From a virus, in UHGV virus genome UHGV-0196030: DNA of 11,550 nucleotides; one strand, given 5' to 3'. Every line of letters starts with the position of its first letter. The first letter of the stretch is position 1. Shown piece by piece: positions 718 to 10,687 of the stretch. Position numbers and translations under genes: made by a program. Under the pieces are notes generated by a model. The model worked only from the letters and a program-made list of their open reading frames with translations, ran no database searches and was not told where the DNA came from.

Positions 718-957
718 CCTGCAAACAATTCTATTTCATCGTTAGCCCTTGTCCTGTAAGGTAATTGGCTTAACACGCCCGCTATTCATCCTGCCGAACG
801 CAACCGAACGCGCCGGATACATGAGCGGGGTTATCGAGTCGTTAGATCGAGGTATCCGGTTTTAAGCAAGACACCACTGACAGCAAAGGGCATAGAGGCC
901 GCCCAGCCGAAGGACAAGCCCTACAAACTCACCGATTCACTAACACCTGGCCTGTTC

Positions 958-2964: not shown

Positions 2965-3793
2965 AAAACAGAAGAATTGTTTCGCCGCCTGATAGGTCGG
3001 CTGGTTGCGAGCATTAACCATGCTGATTAGCGCAATCATTTCCAGCAAGCTGGAAACGCCCATTCACTCACGCACAACCTGAACAGCAGACCAACAGAAC
3101 ATCATGGCGATTCGTTCATGGGTAGCGCGGTATATCTCAAATGTGACGCCTCTTGTTGCTGGACCTTCGGAAAACACCATGGAGACGAAAGTATTCAATC
3201 TGGTCTGGCAGCAGGGAGAGCTTCGCTTCGCTCGTCTCCTGGGGCCAATGCTCAATGAAACGACGTAAGGCACGGAGCGCTCACCATAGGCAGACACATA
3301 AACATCTGAGAGCGCACCTTCTATCGCGCTACGCGCTCAATAAAAACCAACGACACCGCCATCCTGCCTGACCGATGTTTTTAACCAGCGTATACAGAGA
3401 AACAGACAATAGCATGAAATCAGCGTATATCCAGGTGCAGACGGCACTATCACACAACGCACAGCAGGCTTAAGTGACCACTCAGGAAACTTTATCCCCG
3501 CCACCGACTAACGCAAACCGTCCTGACCGCGCCAAATTCGAAAGGAATGCTACCTTAAACGCGATTAACACACATAAGCGCCACACTTACTTACCTGAAA
3601 ACTTCACAGCGTCACAGCGCGTTTTAGACACGTTAAAATCGATGCGATTTCATTAAATTTTTTTCACTCGCCTGAATGGTGGCAATCAGGACTGATTGCA
3701 ACATTGCCCCGCCTCGATACTGAGCGCATAATAAATACATACATTAAGCGGAAACGTCATTAACAGATTTGGAAAAACAATGGGTTACACATC

Positions 3794-6878: not shown

Positions 6879-7283
6879 GTGGAGACTGAAGATAAAGAAA
6901 TCAATAACTTGCCTGTAAATGGCAACAGGTTAGCGAGAAAAAGGGCCAAATATACCATCGCGCTGGCGGAAGAAATTTGTTTGTTGGTAGCGGAAGGCCA
7001 TAGCCTACGTGAGATCGCGAAGATGCCAGACATGCCATCGTTACGCACTTTAATGCGGTGGCAATATGAACATCCAGATTTCAGAGAGCACATCGGTATT
7101 TTTAAGTGGATTCACGCCCAGGACGCAGCAGAGCAAGCTGTTGAAGCTATCAGAGATGTAGATCTGGAAGCGGAAGACGCGCCACTGAAATTAAAACAGG
7201 CTGAGGCATTAGCCCGCACTTTGTTAGGTCGTGCCAAATTGCTTGAGAGCAAAAACAATCCATTCAACGGGGGTGACAAATGA
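6879..7283 (+). CDS. Phage terminase small subunit (TerS)-like protein, 134 aa, GTG start
   Basis: N-terminal HTH region KYTIALAEEICLLVAEGHSLREIAKMPDMPSLRTLMRWQYEHPDFREHI matches the pattern I recall for TerS-family proteins (Y-T-x-E-L-A-x-x-I-C...G-x-S-L-R-x-I...M-P-S-x-x-T-x-x-R-W). G-rich SD at 6868..6872. Confidence 0.55.
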   Translation: METEDKEINNLPVNGNRLARKRAKYTIALAEEICLLVAEGHSLREIAKMPDMPSLRTLMRWQYEHPDFREHIGIFKWIHAQDAAEQAVEAIRDVDLEAEDAPLKLKQAEALARTLLGRAKLLESKNNPFNGGDK

Positions 7284-7789
7284 GCTTTATGGGTAAACAC
7301 AAGACTGGTGGTAAAGACGACGCACAGGGCTTGTTTAAGGCCGGGAAAAAGGCATCTTTAACGCCGGAAGAAAAAGATAGACAACTACAGCTTAAGCCAT
7401 TCAGCCAGTGGACAAAGCAGGATATCGCGATGTGGCGAGCCGTTAATATTGAACGCTGCCAGGAAGACGTAGACGACGGACTGATGGAAGATTTCGAACT
7501 GGACGATCTGATTAATTGTTGGGCCTTCGAGATCGTCGATGATGCGCTTATCCGTACCCGTACCGCGCCGCCGTGTGAGGAAATGATGCTGGGACTGATG
7601 AAGCCGACTACGGATCTGGTTGTTGGTTACTGTCAGATTGATGGCCTTGATAGCCTTGCCGCCGCCGATACAACCGACTCAATGGAACAAGCCGCACGCC
7701 AGCAACGGAAGATTGAACTGCAACGACGCCTACACCATGAGCGCAACGTACCAGGGCAAGAACTGGAAACCATCCCGCGCCGCCAGTAA
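7280..7789 (+). CDS. Hypothetical protein, 169 aa, translationally coupled to the terS-like gene
   Basis: ATG at 7280 overlaps the terS-like TGA stop (ATGA overlap at 7280..7283). GGGGG (7269..7273) serves as SD. Acidic, Cys-containing protein with no recognised motif. Confidence 0.5.
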   Translation: MSFMGKHKTGGKDDAQGLFKAGKKASLTPEEKDRQLQLKPFSQWTKQDIAMWRAVNIERCQEDVDDGLMEDFELDDLINCWAFEIVDDALIRTRTAPPCEEMMLGLMKPTTDLVVGYCQIDGLDSLAAADTTDSMEQAARQQRKIELQRRLHHERNVPGQELETIPRRQ

Positions 7790-7815: not shown

Positions 7816-7841
7816 ACGCCAGGGGCATCCAGACTGGCGGA
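7816..7841 (+). repeat. Hairpin element ACGCCAGGGG-CAGACTGGCGGA, copy 1 (copy 2 at 9976..9999)
   Basis: Stem CGCCAG / CTGGCG conserved in both copies; the loops differ by a 2-nt indel. Each copy lies 10-27 nt after a stop codon (7789 and 9966). Confidence 0.45.
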
Positions 7842-8120
7842 ATATATCAATAGTGCGCATTAGATACATTATGTGAAAAACGACATGAGTATATATCAGT
7901 ACTGATTTTACTGGAAAAACTTGATTTTCAGTATCAATCCCAAAGAAGTATGGCTAATGCAGCTTTATAAGCAATTGATTCTATTAAGCGATGTTTTTTG
8001 TGATTGGTTGAAGCAAACCGGAATACGAAGACAGTGAAGCGGCAATAAACTGTTTCAATGTGAAATTATCAGAGTAAACAACAATTTTGGAGGTGTCCGC
8101 ACAACGCGGATAGCAATATC

Positions 8121-9966
8121 ATGAGTGGAAATCTTGGGACCATTTACTATGAGGTGGACGCCCGCACGGGTAAGCTACTGATGGCACAAGAAGAAGCGAA
8201 TCAGGCTTTTGATGCCATTGAGCGTGGCGCAAAACGTGCTGATAACGGCGTCAAAAAACTGAATACGCAGATGACCAAAACGTCTGCCGCAGTAAAATCA
8301 AATTTCTCATTTGCAATCAAAAACGCATCCTACCAGATAGCAGACCTTGCTACACAACTTCAGATGGGCGGTAATGCCATCCAGGTCTTTGCCGTTCAAG
8401 GGGCGCAGCTTGTCGCTGCATTTGGTACTGGCGGTGCGGTCATGGGTGCGGTCATGGCTATTGGCGGGGCAATTGCCAACAGCCTTACGGATAACATGGA
8501 TGACGCCACGGATAGAAAAATACATTGATGCGCTACTCCGCTACAGCAACGAGGTGCTAACAGCAGAAGAGCGTCAAACGGCGTTAAACGAGGCACTGAA
8601 TGCTGGGGCGTCTGCGGCAGCAATTGCCACTGGCGAAATGCTGATTAAACAGGAGCAGATCAAGCAAGAGAAGCTAAAAGGCAATGAGAACGCTGCGCTT
8701 GATATGGCGCTGGCTGAGGGCAAGTTAACGAAGGCGGATCACGATAGGCTTGTCCAGATGCGAGAAGAAACAAAGGAATTGGAGGAGAACAAACGCAAGG
8801 AAGAAGAGAACGCCAGGGAGAAAGAACGAGCAGCCAAACAGGCAGAAAGCGCGGCGAAACAGGCGGCGAAACAGGCGCAACGCGAACTTGAACAGCTTCA
8901 GAAACGCGGGCAAGGTGTAGCTGACAAGTACAACGTAGAGGGCGCAGCACAGCGTAAACTAAAAGAAGACCAGGAAGCGCTAAATGCAGCAATGGAAGCT
9001 GGCAAAATCAGCACAGAACAATATAACGCAGCGTGGGCCGGACTCCTGAGAACGGAGGCGCAACGCAAACAGCAAGCCGGATGGGATAATCTTGTCAGCC
9101 GGGAAGATAAGCTAAAAGGCCGTGTTGACCCAATCCAGCAGGTGATGAACGAATGGAATGTTCGCAAGCAAATGATGCTCGATTTAGGCGTCACTGAGGC
9201 AACCATGCGGCAAGCAGAGATCGACCACAAAGAACGAATTCTTAACCTTCAGTGGCAGCAATGGCAGGCGCAAAGCGATACTAACGCGCTTGTAGGTAAC
9301 ATGATTGATGGCCTCGCTTCCGGTGCTGGTAGCGCATTTACCGGACTGCTTAACGGATCTCAATCGTTCCAGGAATCACTTGCTAACATCGGAACGACCA
9401 TTATCAACCAGGTTGTTGGAAGCCTTGCGCAGATGGGGGCGGAATACGTTAAACAGCTTGTTATGGGTGAGGTTGCGCAGAAATCAGCCTCCGCATCAGC
9501 TACTGCAACGGCAGCGGCAACAGGCGCATCAATCGCATCATCAATGGCCCCAGCAGCAGCGGCGACAGCAACCGCGACAATGGGTACGGCCCCGATGGTG
9601 GCGATGTCTGCGATGTCGGCATTAATGACTGGCATTACAAGCCTATTTGGCGGACGTCGCTACAACGGCGGCGCGGTTAATGGCGGCAATATGTATCGAG
9701 TCGGTGAAAACAAAGTACCTGAACTATTCCAGACCAATAACGGACGGCAGTACATGATTCCGGGTGAGAATGGTCGCATCATTCCTGGTCGTGATATTGG
9801 TGGCGGTAACGTTAGCATAAACGCGCCTATAACCGTTTACCCACAAAACGGTTGGACCGAACAGGATAGCAAGGCATTGCAGCAGACGATTGAGAATACA
9901 GCGATGCGGTTGATGCAGAGAGAATCAACCAGGCCGGGCGGAATGCTCCAGGGTCGCCGCCGTTAA
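8121..9966 (+). pseudogene. Lambda gpH-like tail tape-measure gene, split by a frameshift near 8516..8528 into 8121..8528 and a second frame running to 9966
   Basis: N-terminal part (...YQIADLATQLQMGGNAIQVFAVQGAQLVAAFGTGGAVMGAVMAIGGAIANSL) resembles the lambda H region FTDVATQLAGGQSPWLILLQQGGQV. Downstream frame has coiled-coil KEEENAREKERAAKQAESAAKQAAKQAQRELEQLQKRG and a Gly/Ala/Thr-rich C-terminus ending GGMLQGRRR (lambda H ends GGLFSGGGR). The two frames are offset by +1, with an A5 run at 8516..8520 just before the frame-0 stop. No other tail genes are present. Confidence 0.6.
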
Positions 9967-10136
9967 CCAAATCCCACGCCAGGGGAACAGACTGGCGGAC
10001 CTTCAAAGACGGTCGCACACCGTGTTTAACATAATTTATTGTTTTTTGCTTGCTCTTATTATTGCAGCCGTTAGAGTTGGCGTGGCAGTTTTTCACCTGT
10101 TTCGCGTGTTGCTGTGTTTTTGGGGAAGAAAAACAA

Positions 10137-10232
10137 ATGAGAAGGCTTATATACCTGGTATTTATGCTATTTGCTATCGGGCAAGCCATAATTTTTATCA
10201 CAATGCTGATCTGTCTGATGCTCTTTGGTTAA
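10137..10232 (+). CDS. Small hydrophobic peptide, 31 aa (MRRLIYLVFMLFAIGQAIIFITMLICLMLFG): candidate small membrane protein or type I toxin-like peptide
   Basis: SD GGGGAAG (10122..10128) 8 nt before the ATG at 10137. Single predicted transmembrane helix after an N-terminal RR. The stop is followed within 10 nt by an intrinsic terminator. Confidence 0.4.
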   Translation: MRRLIYLVFMLFAIGQAIIFITMLICLMLFG

Positions 10233-10240
10233 CTCCACCA

Positions 10241-10260
10241 GGACCCGCGACGGGTTTTTA
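10241..10260 (+). terminator. Rho-independent terminator after the small hydrophobic ORF
   Basis: Stem ACCCG (10243..10247) / CGGGT (10251..10255), loop CGA, followed by TTTTT. Confidence 0.55.
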
Positions 10261-10431
10261 TACCATCATTATTAAATCTATTAATAATCATCAAACCATA
10301 ATTAGCACAACTTATAATCGAGCAAAAATCACACAACCTTGATAAGTTGAGCTAATGGCTATATGTTTTTCTGATGAAATCCTAATGGCGAAAACTTGCG
10401 ACGATACCGAAAAAACCGCGAAAATTGAAGT

Positions 10432-10541
10432 GTTCTTTCTTTTTTTGTTTTTTATTTTTTTATTTTCTCTTTTTCTTCTCTTTCCGGTTCTCTTCTTTTT
10501 CTGGTTTTGGTTTTTTCCTTTTTTATTTTTATTCTTTCTTC
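10432..10541. repeat. Polypyrimidine (T/C-rich) low-complexity tract of about 110 bp; polypurine on the minus strand
   Basis: GTTCTTTCTTTTTTTGTTTTTTATTTTTTTATTTTCTCTTTTTCTTCTCTTTCCGGTTCTCTTCTTTTTCTGGTTTTGGTTTTTTCCTTTTTTATTTTTATTCTTTCTTC; strongly pyrimidine-biased, with only scattered purines. Confidence 0.7.
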
Positions 10542-10687
10542 AGGGTTGTGCTAAAACACACCAAAACATTTTCGCCACAAAAGCGTTAATTTCATCCTGC
10601 CAGACCATTCACTTTCACCGGATACACAGCCGGATATATTCCCACTAACACCCCACCACCCAGCGCCACGCCTGATAACTACCGTAT

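What the first reader, a model, noticed from the sequence alone, without database searches (positions are those of the whole stretch)
7816..9999. Two copies of a ~25-bp hairpin element bracket the tape-measure remnant
ACGCCAGGGGCATCCAGACTGGCGGA (7816..7841) and ACGCCAGGGGAACAGACTGGCGGA (9976..9999) share a conserved CGCCAG/CTGGCG stem and differ only in the loop. Each lies just after a stop codon (7789 and 9966) and is not followed by a U-tract. The 2.1 kb between them holds the AT-rich 7850..8120 spacer and the frameshifted tape-measure gene. The repeats could be recombination scars marking acquisition of the tail-gene fragment as a cassette, or a repeated RNA structural or processing element.
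Basis: seen in the sequence. Interest (0 to 1): 0.45.

Follow-up and report, generated by a model that had tools for sequence, protein, structure and literature searches.

The report
Conserved stem-loop ending island gene modules
The two hairpins are real copies of a small conserved stem-loop that closes the tail and packaging gene modules of a phage-like island family in E. coli (the family of K-12's cryptic prophage CPZ-55), and some relatives, including K-12, carry one hairpin and no tape-measure gene.

Summary
The window is a CPZ-55-family island between eutB and eutA. A 6-bp stem (CGCCAG/CTGGCG) with an 8-12 nt loop sits 26 nt after the stop of a YffP-like gene and 9 nt after the stop of a tape-measure (TMP) pseudogene.

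I collected 37 instances in 25 sequence contexts. GACTGGCGG never changes. The only two kinds of stem change give G·U pairs on the + strand. Loop length varies by 1-4 nt, so the element is non-coding.

- Hairpin 2 follows every TMP gene examined.
- Hairpin 1 travels with yffP-like genes and is absent where another gene replaces them.
- Four TMP-less islands (K-12, SC423, DEC9B, one plasmid copy) have yffP-like, a single hairpin, then cargo.

TMP is a core gene of the family rather than an acquired fragment. Ten close relatives keep both hairpins while losing TMP through unrelated deletions.

The element matches nothing in phages, Rfam or other species. The most likely function is a + strand RNA stem-loop marking the 3' end of late transcripts, which has also served as a module junction. 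That function is inferred, not shown.

A dif-like Xer site (7852-7879) marks the left edge of the TMP module.

The parts
7816..7841 (+). Hairpin 1: stem 7817-7822/7834-7839, 11-nt loop GGGCATCCAGA. It is the 3'-flank element of the YffP-like gene.
   Evidence: It is conserved after yffP-like genes in L001, L003, L004, L005, L112, L130, L119, L134 and L135. It is absent where a 231-nt gene replaces yffOP. Covariance-model hit of 45.1 bits.
9976..9999 (+). Hairpin 2: stem 9977-9982/9992-9997, 9-nt loop GGGAACAGA. It is the 3'-flank element of the tape-measure gene and the last sequence common to all islands before the variable cargo.
   Evidence: It is present 9-10 nt after the TMP stop in every TMP-bearing locus fetched. 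A 35-mer around it matches 114 of 5426 E. coli genomes, one place each, never under an annotated feature.
6879..7283 (+). YffO-like gene, resembling a terminase small subunit (Sf6 type).
   Evidence: Pfam PF20901 at 2e-13 and phrog_1482 at 5.9e-15.
7280..7789 (+). YffP-like gene (169 aa, function unknown). Its 3' flank carries hairpin 1.
   Evidence: No family hit. Partial DNA matches to yffP-like genes of other islands. The K-12 yffO-yffP pair occupies the same slot.
7852..7879 (+). dif-like XerC/XerD-type site AGTGCGCATTA-GATACA-TTATGTGAAAA. It forms the left boundary of the TMP module.
   Evidence: It matches 18 of the 20 specified dif positions, with 0.01 expected by chance. The K-12 dif sequence was verified next to hipA. 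The site is conserved in all spacer+TMP islands, behind four different left contexts. BLAST of the island site finds chromosomal dif in about 400 genomes.
7880..8120 (+). AT-rich spacer upstream of TMP; the 7842-8120 interval measured is 34.8% GC. It is conserved together with the TMP gene.
   Evidence: No Rfam family reaches its threshold. No phage match.
8121..9966 (+). Tape-measure pseudogene. A 527-bp deletion at about 8513-8515 splits it into ORFs 8121-8528 and 8347-9966.
   Evidence: phrog_1538 and phrog_1107 at 3e-26 to 7e-67. Pfam TMP_2. Deletion mapped against L001. Intact 790-aa version in L001.
10000..10262 (+). First cargo segment to the right of hairpin 2. It holds a 31-aa hydrophobic ORF (10137-10232) and a terminator-like CCCG-CGA-CGGG-TTTTT (10244-10259).
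   Evidence: The same segment lies between hairpin 2 and the common right flank in L004 and L118.

Best explanation
The two hairpins are copies of one family-specific, non-coding stem-loop that terminates the late (packaging and tail) gene modules of CPZ-55-family islands, which look like phage satellites.

The consensus is A-CGCCAG-[G/C]G...GA-CTGGCG-G on the sense strand. Each module that can occupy the last position before the variable cargo region (yffO-yffP-like, or spacer plus TMP) carries the element just after its stop codon. This window has two copies because both modules are present in tandem.

Shown:
- The element is conserved far above its surroundings.
- It is not translated.
- It tolerates only changes that keep pairing on the + strand.
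- It coincides with the points where homology between islands breaks.
- TMP-less relatives, K-12 among them, have a single copy joining the yffP left flank to the cargo right flank.

Inferred:
- It acts in the mRNA as a 3' stem-loop. It would define or protect the 3' end of the late transcripts, or pause or terminate RNA polymerase with help from a factor, since it has no U-tract.
- As a roughly 22-bp direct repeat it has occasionally served as the crossover point for loss (or gain) of the TMP module and for exchange of cargo.
For: - **Identity and context.** The island lies between eutB and eutA with an intZ-type integrase, as K-12 CPZ-55 does.
- **Conservation.** There are 37 instances, 25 contexts and 16 distinct cores. 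GACTGGCGG is invariant, while the flanks fall into at least 3 upstream and at least 7 downstream types.
- **Pairing.** All cells are paired. The only two kinds of stem variant are C->U (K-12, L130) and A->G (L124). Both give G·U on the + strand and would be A·C on the - strand. The L124 variant folds at -10.2 kcal/mol on + against -6.4 on -.
- **Loops.** Loop lengths of 8-12 nt rule out coding.
- **Position.** The element begins within about 30 nt after the stop of the last co-directional gene (9 and 26 nt in the window).
- **Single-hairpin, TMP-less islands.** L119, L126, L134 and L135.
- **Copy number.** Only one or two copies per island and none elsewhere in those loci. One place per genome.
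- **Retention.** Both copies are kept in ten close relatives even where TMP is internally deleted.
Against: - No compensatory double substitutions were seen, so the structure rests on invariance plus two wobble changes.
- The stem is short, with a large loop, about -11 kcal/mol, and z-scores of only -1.3 to -1.6.
- There is no U-tract, and the terminator scan does not call it.
- The conserved unpaired bases (5' A, 3' G, loop G and GA) point to sequence-specific recognition that a plain 3' stem-loop does not need.
- The K-12 Term-seq tables held for PMC7815308 list no 3' end at 2,563,0xx-2,563,5xx, although the + strand of CPZ-55 is barely expressed in those conditions.
- Whether TMP-less islands arose by deletion or are the older state cannot be decided from these data.
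Confidence: 0.45

Rival explanations
1. The hairpin is a structure- or sequence-specific recombination site, working like an attC site or a small core site. Modules such as TMP and the cargo segments would be inserted and excised there as cassettes, possibly together with the dif-like Xer site at the other edge of the TMP module.
For: - Homology between islands breaks exactly at CTGGCGG, with at least 7 kinds of right flank. Variable inserts of 0, 12, 95 and about 350 nt lie between the hairpin and a common flank.
- Four TMP-less islands have precisely one hairpin.
- Loop variants are shuffled relative to cargo types.
- The stem sequence is invariant rather than covarying.
- The left edge of the TMP module is a dif-like site behind four different left contexts.
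- Mobile DNA lands nearby. In L120 a partial ISNCY-family transposase gene ends 8 nt before the hairpin and the first stem base differs. In GF31 a 15.8-kb element is inserted next to the dif-like site.
Against: - No dedicated recombinase co-occurs with the element. Only the P4-type IntZ is common, and its att core TTCATCCTGCC is unrelated.
- Spacing between the arms varies from 8 to 12 bp, which does not fit a double-stranded tyrosine-recombinase core site.
- Ten places with the identical YffP-like protein all keep both hairpins, and their TMP losses are 527-bp and 2,122-bp internal deletions. A 1.7-kb deletion in L002 is likewise not hairpin-bounded.
- The junction between hairpin 1 and the TMP module has a 12-nt linker that a simple hairpin-by-hairpin exchange does not explain.
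Confidence: 0.2
2. The element is a double-stranded DNA site bound by a protein of the island or its helper phage, such as a palindromic operator or a packaging (cos/pac-type) signal used with the HNH nuclease and the TerS-like protein.
For: - The site is a perfect 6-bp inverted repeat with conserved flanking and inner bases.
- The island encodes an HNH endonuclease and a TerS-like protein.
- The element is present in every island of the family examined.
Against: - Half-site spacing varies from 8 to 12 bp.
- Both kinds of stem substitution keep pairing on one strand only.
- The 35-mer has no match in 50,697 phage genomes, so it does not copy a known helper packaging site.
- The closest phage TMP relatives (mEp010 group) lack it.
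- Islands without the TerS-like gene or the HNH gene still have it.
- Two direct copies 2.1 kb apart make no sense as packaging ends.
Confidence: 0.1
3. The repeats are functionless remnants: short conserved leftovers of past recombination, or of a duplicated gene end, that persist by chance.
For: - The islands are visibly decaying: a TMP pseudogene here, other deletions, and IS insertions.
- Predicted stability is unremarkable.
Against: GACTGGCGG is invariant and the left arm changes only by wobble-compatible transitions across 25 contexts. The adjacent TMP 3' coding sequence, the loop and the flanks all diverge freely, with island DNA at 81-86% identity.
Confidence: 0.1

Closest known systems
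Intrinsic (Rho-independent) terminators and 3'-UTR protective stem-loops of phage late operons
   Same: A GC-rich stem on the sense strand, placed a few to about 30 nt after the stop codon of the last gene of a co-directional operon. It is non-coding, and pairing is kept through G·U changes.
   Different: It has no U-tract and the stem is only 6 bp. The loop is 8-12 nt, and in the two window copies (9 and 11 nt) it exceeds the 3-8 nt usual for terminators. The stem sequence and several unpaired bases are invariant rather than covarying.
Conserved boundary or linker sequences at module junctions of mosaic temperate phages (the Susskind-Botstein and Hendrix idea, cited from general knowledge)
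   Same: A short conserved sequence exactly where homology between relatives starts and stops. Different modules are joined at it.
   Different: Here the junction sequence is a hairpin with its own constraint pattern. It occurs in a small satellite-like island family, not in lambdoid phages, and has no match in 50,697 phage genomes.
Integron attC sites and IS200/IS605 subterminal hairpins
   Same: Imperfectly conserved hairpins in direct orientation that bracket a gene-sized segment just after a stop codon. The segment is present or absent between relatives.
   Different: There is no integron integrase or Y1/HUH transposase, and no R''/R' core motif. The bracketed content is a tail gene. Close relatives show no sign of frequent excision.
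Chromosomal dif and plasmid Xer sites (cer, psi, Acinetobacter pdif modules). This comparison is for the neighbouring 7852-7879 site, not for the hairpin.
   Same: An 11-6-11 layout, with XerC-side and XerD-side arms matching dif at 9-10 of 11 positions each. It sits at a module boundary, as pdif sites do.
   Different: There is one site per island rather than a flanking pair. The conserved adjacent sequence lies on the XerD side, unlike the cer and psi accessory sequences. Binding and recombination are untested.

Membership tests
Intrinsic (Rho-independent) terminator | GC-rich stem of at least 5 bp with a short loop (3-8 nt) | tested here: inconclusive
   The stem is 6 bp with 5 G-C pairs. 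The loops in the window are 11 and 9 nt. Some relatives have 8 nt.
Intrinsic (Rho-independent) terminator | U/T-tract immediately 3' of the stem | tested here: not met
   The sequence after the stems is GGAATATATC and GGACCTTCAA. Neither site is reported by the terminator scan.
REP/BIME-type dispersed extragenic palindromes | Many copies dispersed in intergenic regions around the chromosome | tested here: not met
   One place per genome in 114 of 5426 E. coli genomes for the hairpin 2 35-mer. Only 1-2 copies per island locus and none elsewhere in 310 kb of fetched loci. The scan of species-representative genomes gave only single, out-of-context matches in mostly GC-rich genomes.
Integron attC site | Integron integrase nearby, and R''/R' core sites (RYYYAAC / GTTRRRY) forming the stem ends | tested here: not met
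   The annotated loci hold only a P4-type integrase. The stem arms CGCCAG/CTGGCG do not fit the core motif (direct reading).
IS200/IS605-type element ends | Y1 transposase (tnpA), with or without tnpB, between two subterminal hairpins | tested here: not met
   The interval holds only the spacer and a tape-measure gene.
Lambdoid nut/boxB antitermination hairpin | 5-bp stem with a conserved GNRA-like pentaloop next to a boxA element | tested here: not met
   The loop is 8-12 nt and variable in sequence and length. Rfam reports no family.
CPZ-55-family island (context of the element) | Inserted between eutB and eutA with an intZ-type integrase and yffO/yffP-like genes | tested here: met
   The 99.9%-identical islands L001 and L002 lie between eutB and eutA.
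Xer recombination site (for 7852-7879) | 11-bp XerC arm, 6-8 bp centre and 11-bp XerD arm resembling dif | tested here: met
   18 of the 20 specified dif positions match, with 0.01 expected by chance. dif verified in K-12. BLAST links the island site to the chromosomal dif locus next to hipA.
Xer recombination site (for 7852-7879) | Binding and strand exchange by XerC/XerD | not testable with these tools
   Needs EMSA or in vivo recombination assays.

The most novel reading that the evidence does not exclude
The hairpin, together with the dif-like site, forms the boundaries of a cassette-exchange system in a family of E. coli phage satellites. Under this reading a folded-strand or Xer-assisted recombination reaction inserts and removes the tape-measure module and the downstream cargo (candidate defence or toxin genes) at a fixed 22-nt stem-loop. 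That would be a mechanism similar to integron cassettes or pdif modules, but in a phage-satellite setting and without a dedicated integron integrase.
Probability: 0.1. Interest if true: 0.7.

Novelty: new member of a known kind. Interest (0 to 1): 0.3.

Why it matters
- It gives a concrete structural explanation for the difference between K-12's cryptic prophage CPZ-55 and its wild relatives. K-12 has the yffP module and one stem-loop. Relatives have an additional module of dif-like site, spacer, tape-measure gene and stem-loop.
- It defines precise landmarks (the stem-loop and the dif-like site) for annotating module and cargo boundaries in this island family. My literature searches found no description of the family as a satellite.
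- If the stem-loop controls late-transcript ends, it is a handle on how such islands separate structural-gene expression from cargo expression.
- If it is instead a recombination site, it would be a new way of exchanging cassettes in satellites.
- The element itself is confined to about 2% of E. coli genomes plus the K-12 lineage, so its general importance is limited.

Tried and rejected
1. **Dispersed repeat or wider family.** A pattern scan of 185,579 species-representative genomes gave about 100 single matches, all out of context and mostly in GC-rich genomes. Viral contigs gave one true island fragment (L008). They also gave a chance match inside the 3' end of a minor-head-protein gene (L006/L007, reading ...TPGAKTGG*).
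2. **Borrowed phage signal.** Neither the hairpin 35-mer nor the hairpin-1-plus-spacer segment matches any of 50,697 phage genomes. The closest phage tape-measure genes (mEp010/mEp021 group, about 50% aa identity) have ordinary annotated terminators and no copy.
3. **Known RNA family.** Rfam gives nothing above noise.
4. **Coding sequence.** Rejected because of the stop codons and the variation in loop length.
5. **Island att site.** The att core is TTCATCCTGCC at 785-795 and 10591-10601, which is unrelated.
6. **Extra diverged copies at other gene boundaries.** A covariance model finds none.
7. **Direct evidence of a 3' end in K-12.** The Term-seq tables of PMC7815308 list none near 2,563,1xx. 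This is uninformative because + strand expression is low.
8. **Frequent hairpin-to-hairpin excision.** Not seen among ten places with the identical YffP-like protein.
9. **Lambda cosN resemblance.** GGTCGCCGCC at the TMP 3' end is not conserved in relatives. I take it to be coincidental arginine codons.
10. **Literature.** Searches for CPZ-55 with 'satellite', 'PICI' or 'tape measure' returned nothing.
Full report
**Observation.** Hairpin 1 is at 7816-7841 (stem 7817-7822/7834-7839, 11-nt loop). Hairpin 2 is at 9976-9999 (stem 9977-9982/9992-9997, 9-nt loop). They begin 26 and 9 nt after the TAA stops at 7787-7789 and 9964-9966. The pattern CGCCAG-N4-14-CTGGCG occurs twice in the window against 0.00 expected from shuffles. 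Each folds as predicted at about -11 kcal/mol, which is not exceptional for its composition (z-scores -1.3 and -1.6). Neither has a T-run, and neither is called by the terminator scan.

**Context.** The window is an island inserted between eutB and eutA of E. coli. Islands 99.9% identical occur in a few genomes. This is the position of the K-12 cryptic prophage CPZ-55 (intZ, yffL-yffS). The gene order in the window is:
- a P4-type integrase;
- small HTH proteins and an HNH endonuclease;
- three proteins of unknown function;
- a YffO-like protein resembling a terminase small subunit;
- a YffP-like protein;
- hairpin 1 and an AT-rich spacer;
- a tape-measure (TMP) gene and hairpin 2;
- a short cargo region, then eutA.

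The TMP gene is the 790-aa gene of L001 with a 527-bp out-of-frame deletion at about 8513-8515. The same family also occurs at a second site between rssA and ychJ (L120, L127, L129).

**Both hairpins in relatives.** I fetched about 30 related loci from E. coli genomes, metagenomes and assemblies.
- The element is found 37 times in 25 different sequence contexts, with 16 distinct core sequences. Two further variants turned up in L134 and L135.
- The right arm with its neighbours (GACTGGCGG) never changes.
- The left arm is CGCCAG, except CGTCAG in K-12 and L130 and CGCCGG in L124.
- The loop varies in sequence and in length (8, 9, 10, 11 and 12 nt), which excludes translation.
- On the alignment every cell is paired and no pair changes on both sides. 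The two one-sided changes both give G·U on the + strand and would be A·C on the - strand. The L124 variant folds at -10.2 kcal/mol on + against -6.4 on -.
- This is the pattern expected for selection on a sense-strand hairpin at modest divergence (flanking island DNA is 81-86% identical). It is not covariation proof. The invariant unpaired bases suggest sequence-specific recognition as well.

**Which module owns which hairpin.**
- Hairpin 2 lies 9-10 nt after the stop of every TMP gene examined. That includes islands where TMP is fused into an operon with the upstream genes (L124, L125, L127).
- The 35-mer around hairpin 2 is found once in each of 114 of 5426 complete E. coli genomes, and 113 genomes match the TMP region.
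- Hairpin 1 occurs only after yffP-like genes. Its junction sequence is found in 14 genomes.
- Where a 231-nt gene replaces yffO-yffP (L118, L121, L122, L128, L129) there is no hairpin 1. Homology to the window then starts at AGTGCGCAT (window 7852), about 10 nt to the right of hairpin 1.
- A covariance model built from the alignment finds one or two copies per island and no diverged copies elsewhere in 310 kb of loci.

- In K-12 MG1655 the yffP stop is followed by the hairpin-1 left flank, a single hairpin (ACGTCAGCGGCAAGACTGGCGG), and then the flank that follows hairpin 2 in L003 and L128 (CGCTCCTACGCGAAAAATCCCTCAC...). There is no dif-like site, spacer or TMP.
- Three more islands have the same architecture with different loops and cargo: SC423 (L126), the O26-type strain DEC9B (L135) and a copy on an IncFIB plasmid (L134).
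- The nearest relatives of the K-12 left flank (L004, 86%) and right flank (L118, 85-88%) in my sample both carry TMP. This favours deletion in the K-12 lineage but does not prove it.

**Evidence against frequent or site-specific excision.**
- Ten places that encode the identical YffP-like protein all retain both hairpins.
- TMP losses in close relatives are a 527-bp deletion (window, L136), a 2,122-bp internal deletion (L137) and a 1.7-kb deletion fusing YffP-like to TMP (L002). None is bounded by the hairpins.

**The hairpin as a junction.**
- To the right of CTGGCGG the sequence falls into several unrelated or only partly related classes.
- A common flank (...CTACGCGAAAAATCCCTCACAACTACC...) lies 0 nt away in L003, 12 nt in K-12, about 95 nt in L121 and about 350 nt in L004 and L118.
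- Loop variants are shuffled relative to cargo classes.
- So recombination has repeatedly joined different DNA at or next to the element. Whether the element promotes this, or is simply the last conserved sequence before a variable region, cannot be told from sequence alone.

**What it is not.**
- It is not a dispersed repeat.
- It is not shared with any sequenced phage, including the mEp010/mEp021 group whose TMP is the closest phage relative at about 50% aa identity.
- It is not a known Rfam family.
- It is not the island att core.
- It is not an attC site or an IS200/IS605 end, because there is no matching recombinase or core motif.
- It is not a canonical intrinsic terminator, because it has no U-tract.
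- K-12 Term-seq tables list no 3' end at the K-12 copy. Sense transcription of CPZ-55 is weak in those conditions, so this is uninformative.

**Mechanism.**
- My best reading (0.45) is a sense-strand RNA stem-loop that marks the end of the late transcription units. It would act in 3'-end formation or protection, or in factor-dependent pausing or termination. It is inherited with each module, and as a direct repeat it occasionally mediates loss or gain of the TMP module.
- The steps that are shown are conservation, non-coding status, strand-specific tolerance, position, and the single-hairpin relatives.
- The RNA role and the direction of the indel are inferred.
- The rivals are a recombination site for cassette exchange (0.2), a double-stranded protein-binding or packaging site (0.1) and a functionless scar (0.1).

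**A second boundary element.**
- Ten nt after hairpin 1 lies AGTGCGCATTA-GATACA-TTATGTGAAAA (7852-7879). It matches E. coli dif (GGTGCGCATAA-TGTATA-TTATGTTAAAT, verified in K-12 next to hipA) at 18 of the 20 specified positions, with 0.01 expected by chance.
- It is conserved in every island that has the spacer-plus-TMP arrangement, behind four different left contexts. It is absent from TMP-less and operon-fused islands.
- BLAST of the island version picks up chromosomal dif in about 400 genomes.
- The TMP module is therefore bounded on the left by a Xer-type site and on the right by hairpin 2.
- In strain GF31 a 15.8-kb element carrying two integrases and a type I restriction system is inserted at the A-run at the outer end of this site.

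**Verdict.** The element is a new, narrowly distributed member of the broad class of conserved intergenic stem-loops and module-boundary sequences in mobile elements. Interest is modest (0.3). The cassette-exchange reading, if shown experimentally, would deserve more.

Noticed in passing
window 7852-7879: A dif-like XerC/XerD-type site (AGTGCGCATTA-GATACA-TTATGTGAAAA) lies 10 nt after hairpin 1. It is conserved in all spacer+TMP islands behind four different left contexts, so it marks the left boundary of the TMP module. BLAST of the island version retrieves chromosomal dif.
   Followed up: yes
L009 (E. coli GF31), equivalent to window 7876-7880: A 15.8-kb element carrying two site-specific integrases, a large unknown protein and a type I restriction-modification system is inserted at the A-run at the outer edge of the dif-like site. 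Its right end carries an imperfect copy of the XerD-side arm (ACATAAGTTAAAAA).
   Followed up: partly
window 8121-9966; L002; L137: The tape-measure gene decays by independent deletions in near-identical islands: 527 bp here (junction about 8513-8515, 3-4 bp microhomology), 1.7 kb fusing the YffP-like gene to the TMP C-terminus in L002, and 2,122 bp in L137. Left-hand parts of the island are also deleted in L137, L143 and L145.
   Followed up: yes
whole window and loci L001-L005, L117-L131: CPZ-55-family islands look like a phage-satellite family. They combine a P4-type integrase, small HTH proteins, an HNH endonuclease, a TerS-like protein and, unusually, their own tape-measure gene; one (L125) also has an HK97 gp10-like protein. 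The closest phage TMP is in the mEp010/mEp021 group at about 50% aa identity. Literature searches for CPZ-55 with 'satellite', 'PICI' or 'tape measure' found nothing.
   Followed up: partly
window 10137-10232 and 10244-10259: A 31-aa very hydrophobic ORF (MRRLIYLVFMLFAIGQAIIFITMLICLMLFG) is followed by a terminator-like CCCG-CGA-CGGG-TTTTT. This is a candidate small membrane peptide or toxin-like gene. RefSeq instead annotates an overlapping 106-aa ORF (10022-10342).
   Followed up: no
window 10425-10549: A 125-nt tract that is 83% pyrimidine on the + strand and 25.6% GC, with many short T-rich repeats, lies just inside the right end of the island. Its function is unknown.
   Followed up: no
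window 785-795, 10591-10601 and 3360-3368: The probable att core TTCATCCTGCC is repeated at both island ends. A third partial copy (CATCCTGCC) lies inside the island at 3360.
   Followed up: no
L120, L127, L129: The same island family, with TMP and hairpin, also occurs at a second chromosomal site between rssA and ychJ. In L120 a partial ISNCY-family transposase gene ends 8 nt before the hairpin, and the first base of the left stem arm differs from the consensus (TGCCAG).
   Followed up: partly
window 8088-8123: A GGAGG sequence lies 27 nt upstream of the TMP start codon, with a 5-bp hairpin (TCCGC-ACAAC-GCGGA) between them. This may bring the ribosome-binding site closer to the AUG or regulate translation.
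   Followed up: no
K-12 CPZ-55 (NC_000913.3 2,560,302 and 2,561,657, - strand): Term-seq tables of PMC7815308 list strong antisense 3' ends opposite yffL and yffM/yffN, but none at the K-12 hairpin.
   Followed up: no
L133 (Klebsiella pneumoniae plasmid pHK02-026): A complete K-12-type CPZ-55 (int, yffL-yffS) sits on an IncFIA/IncR resistance plasmid between ISEc23 and the mph(A) region. The island has therefore been carried to another species on a plasmid.
   Followed up: no
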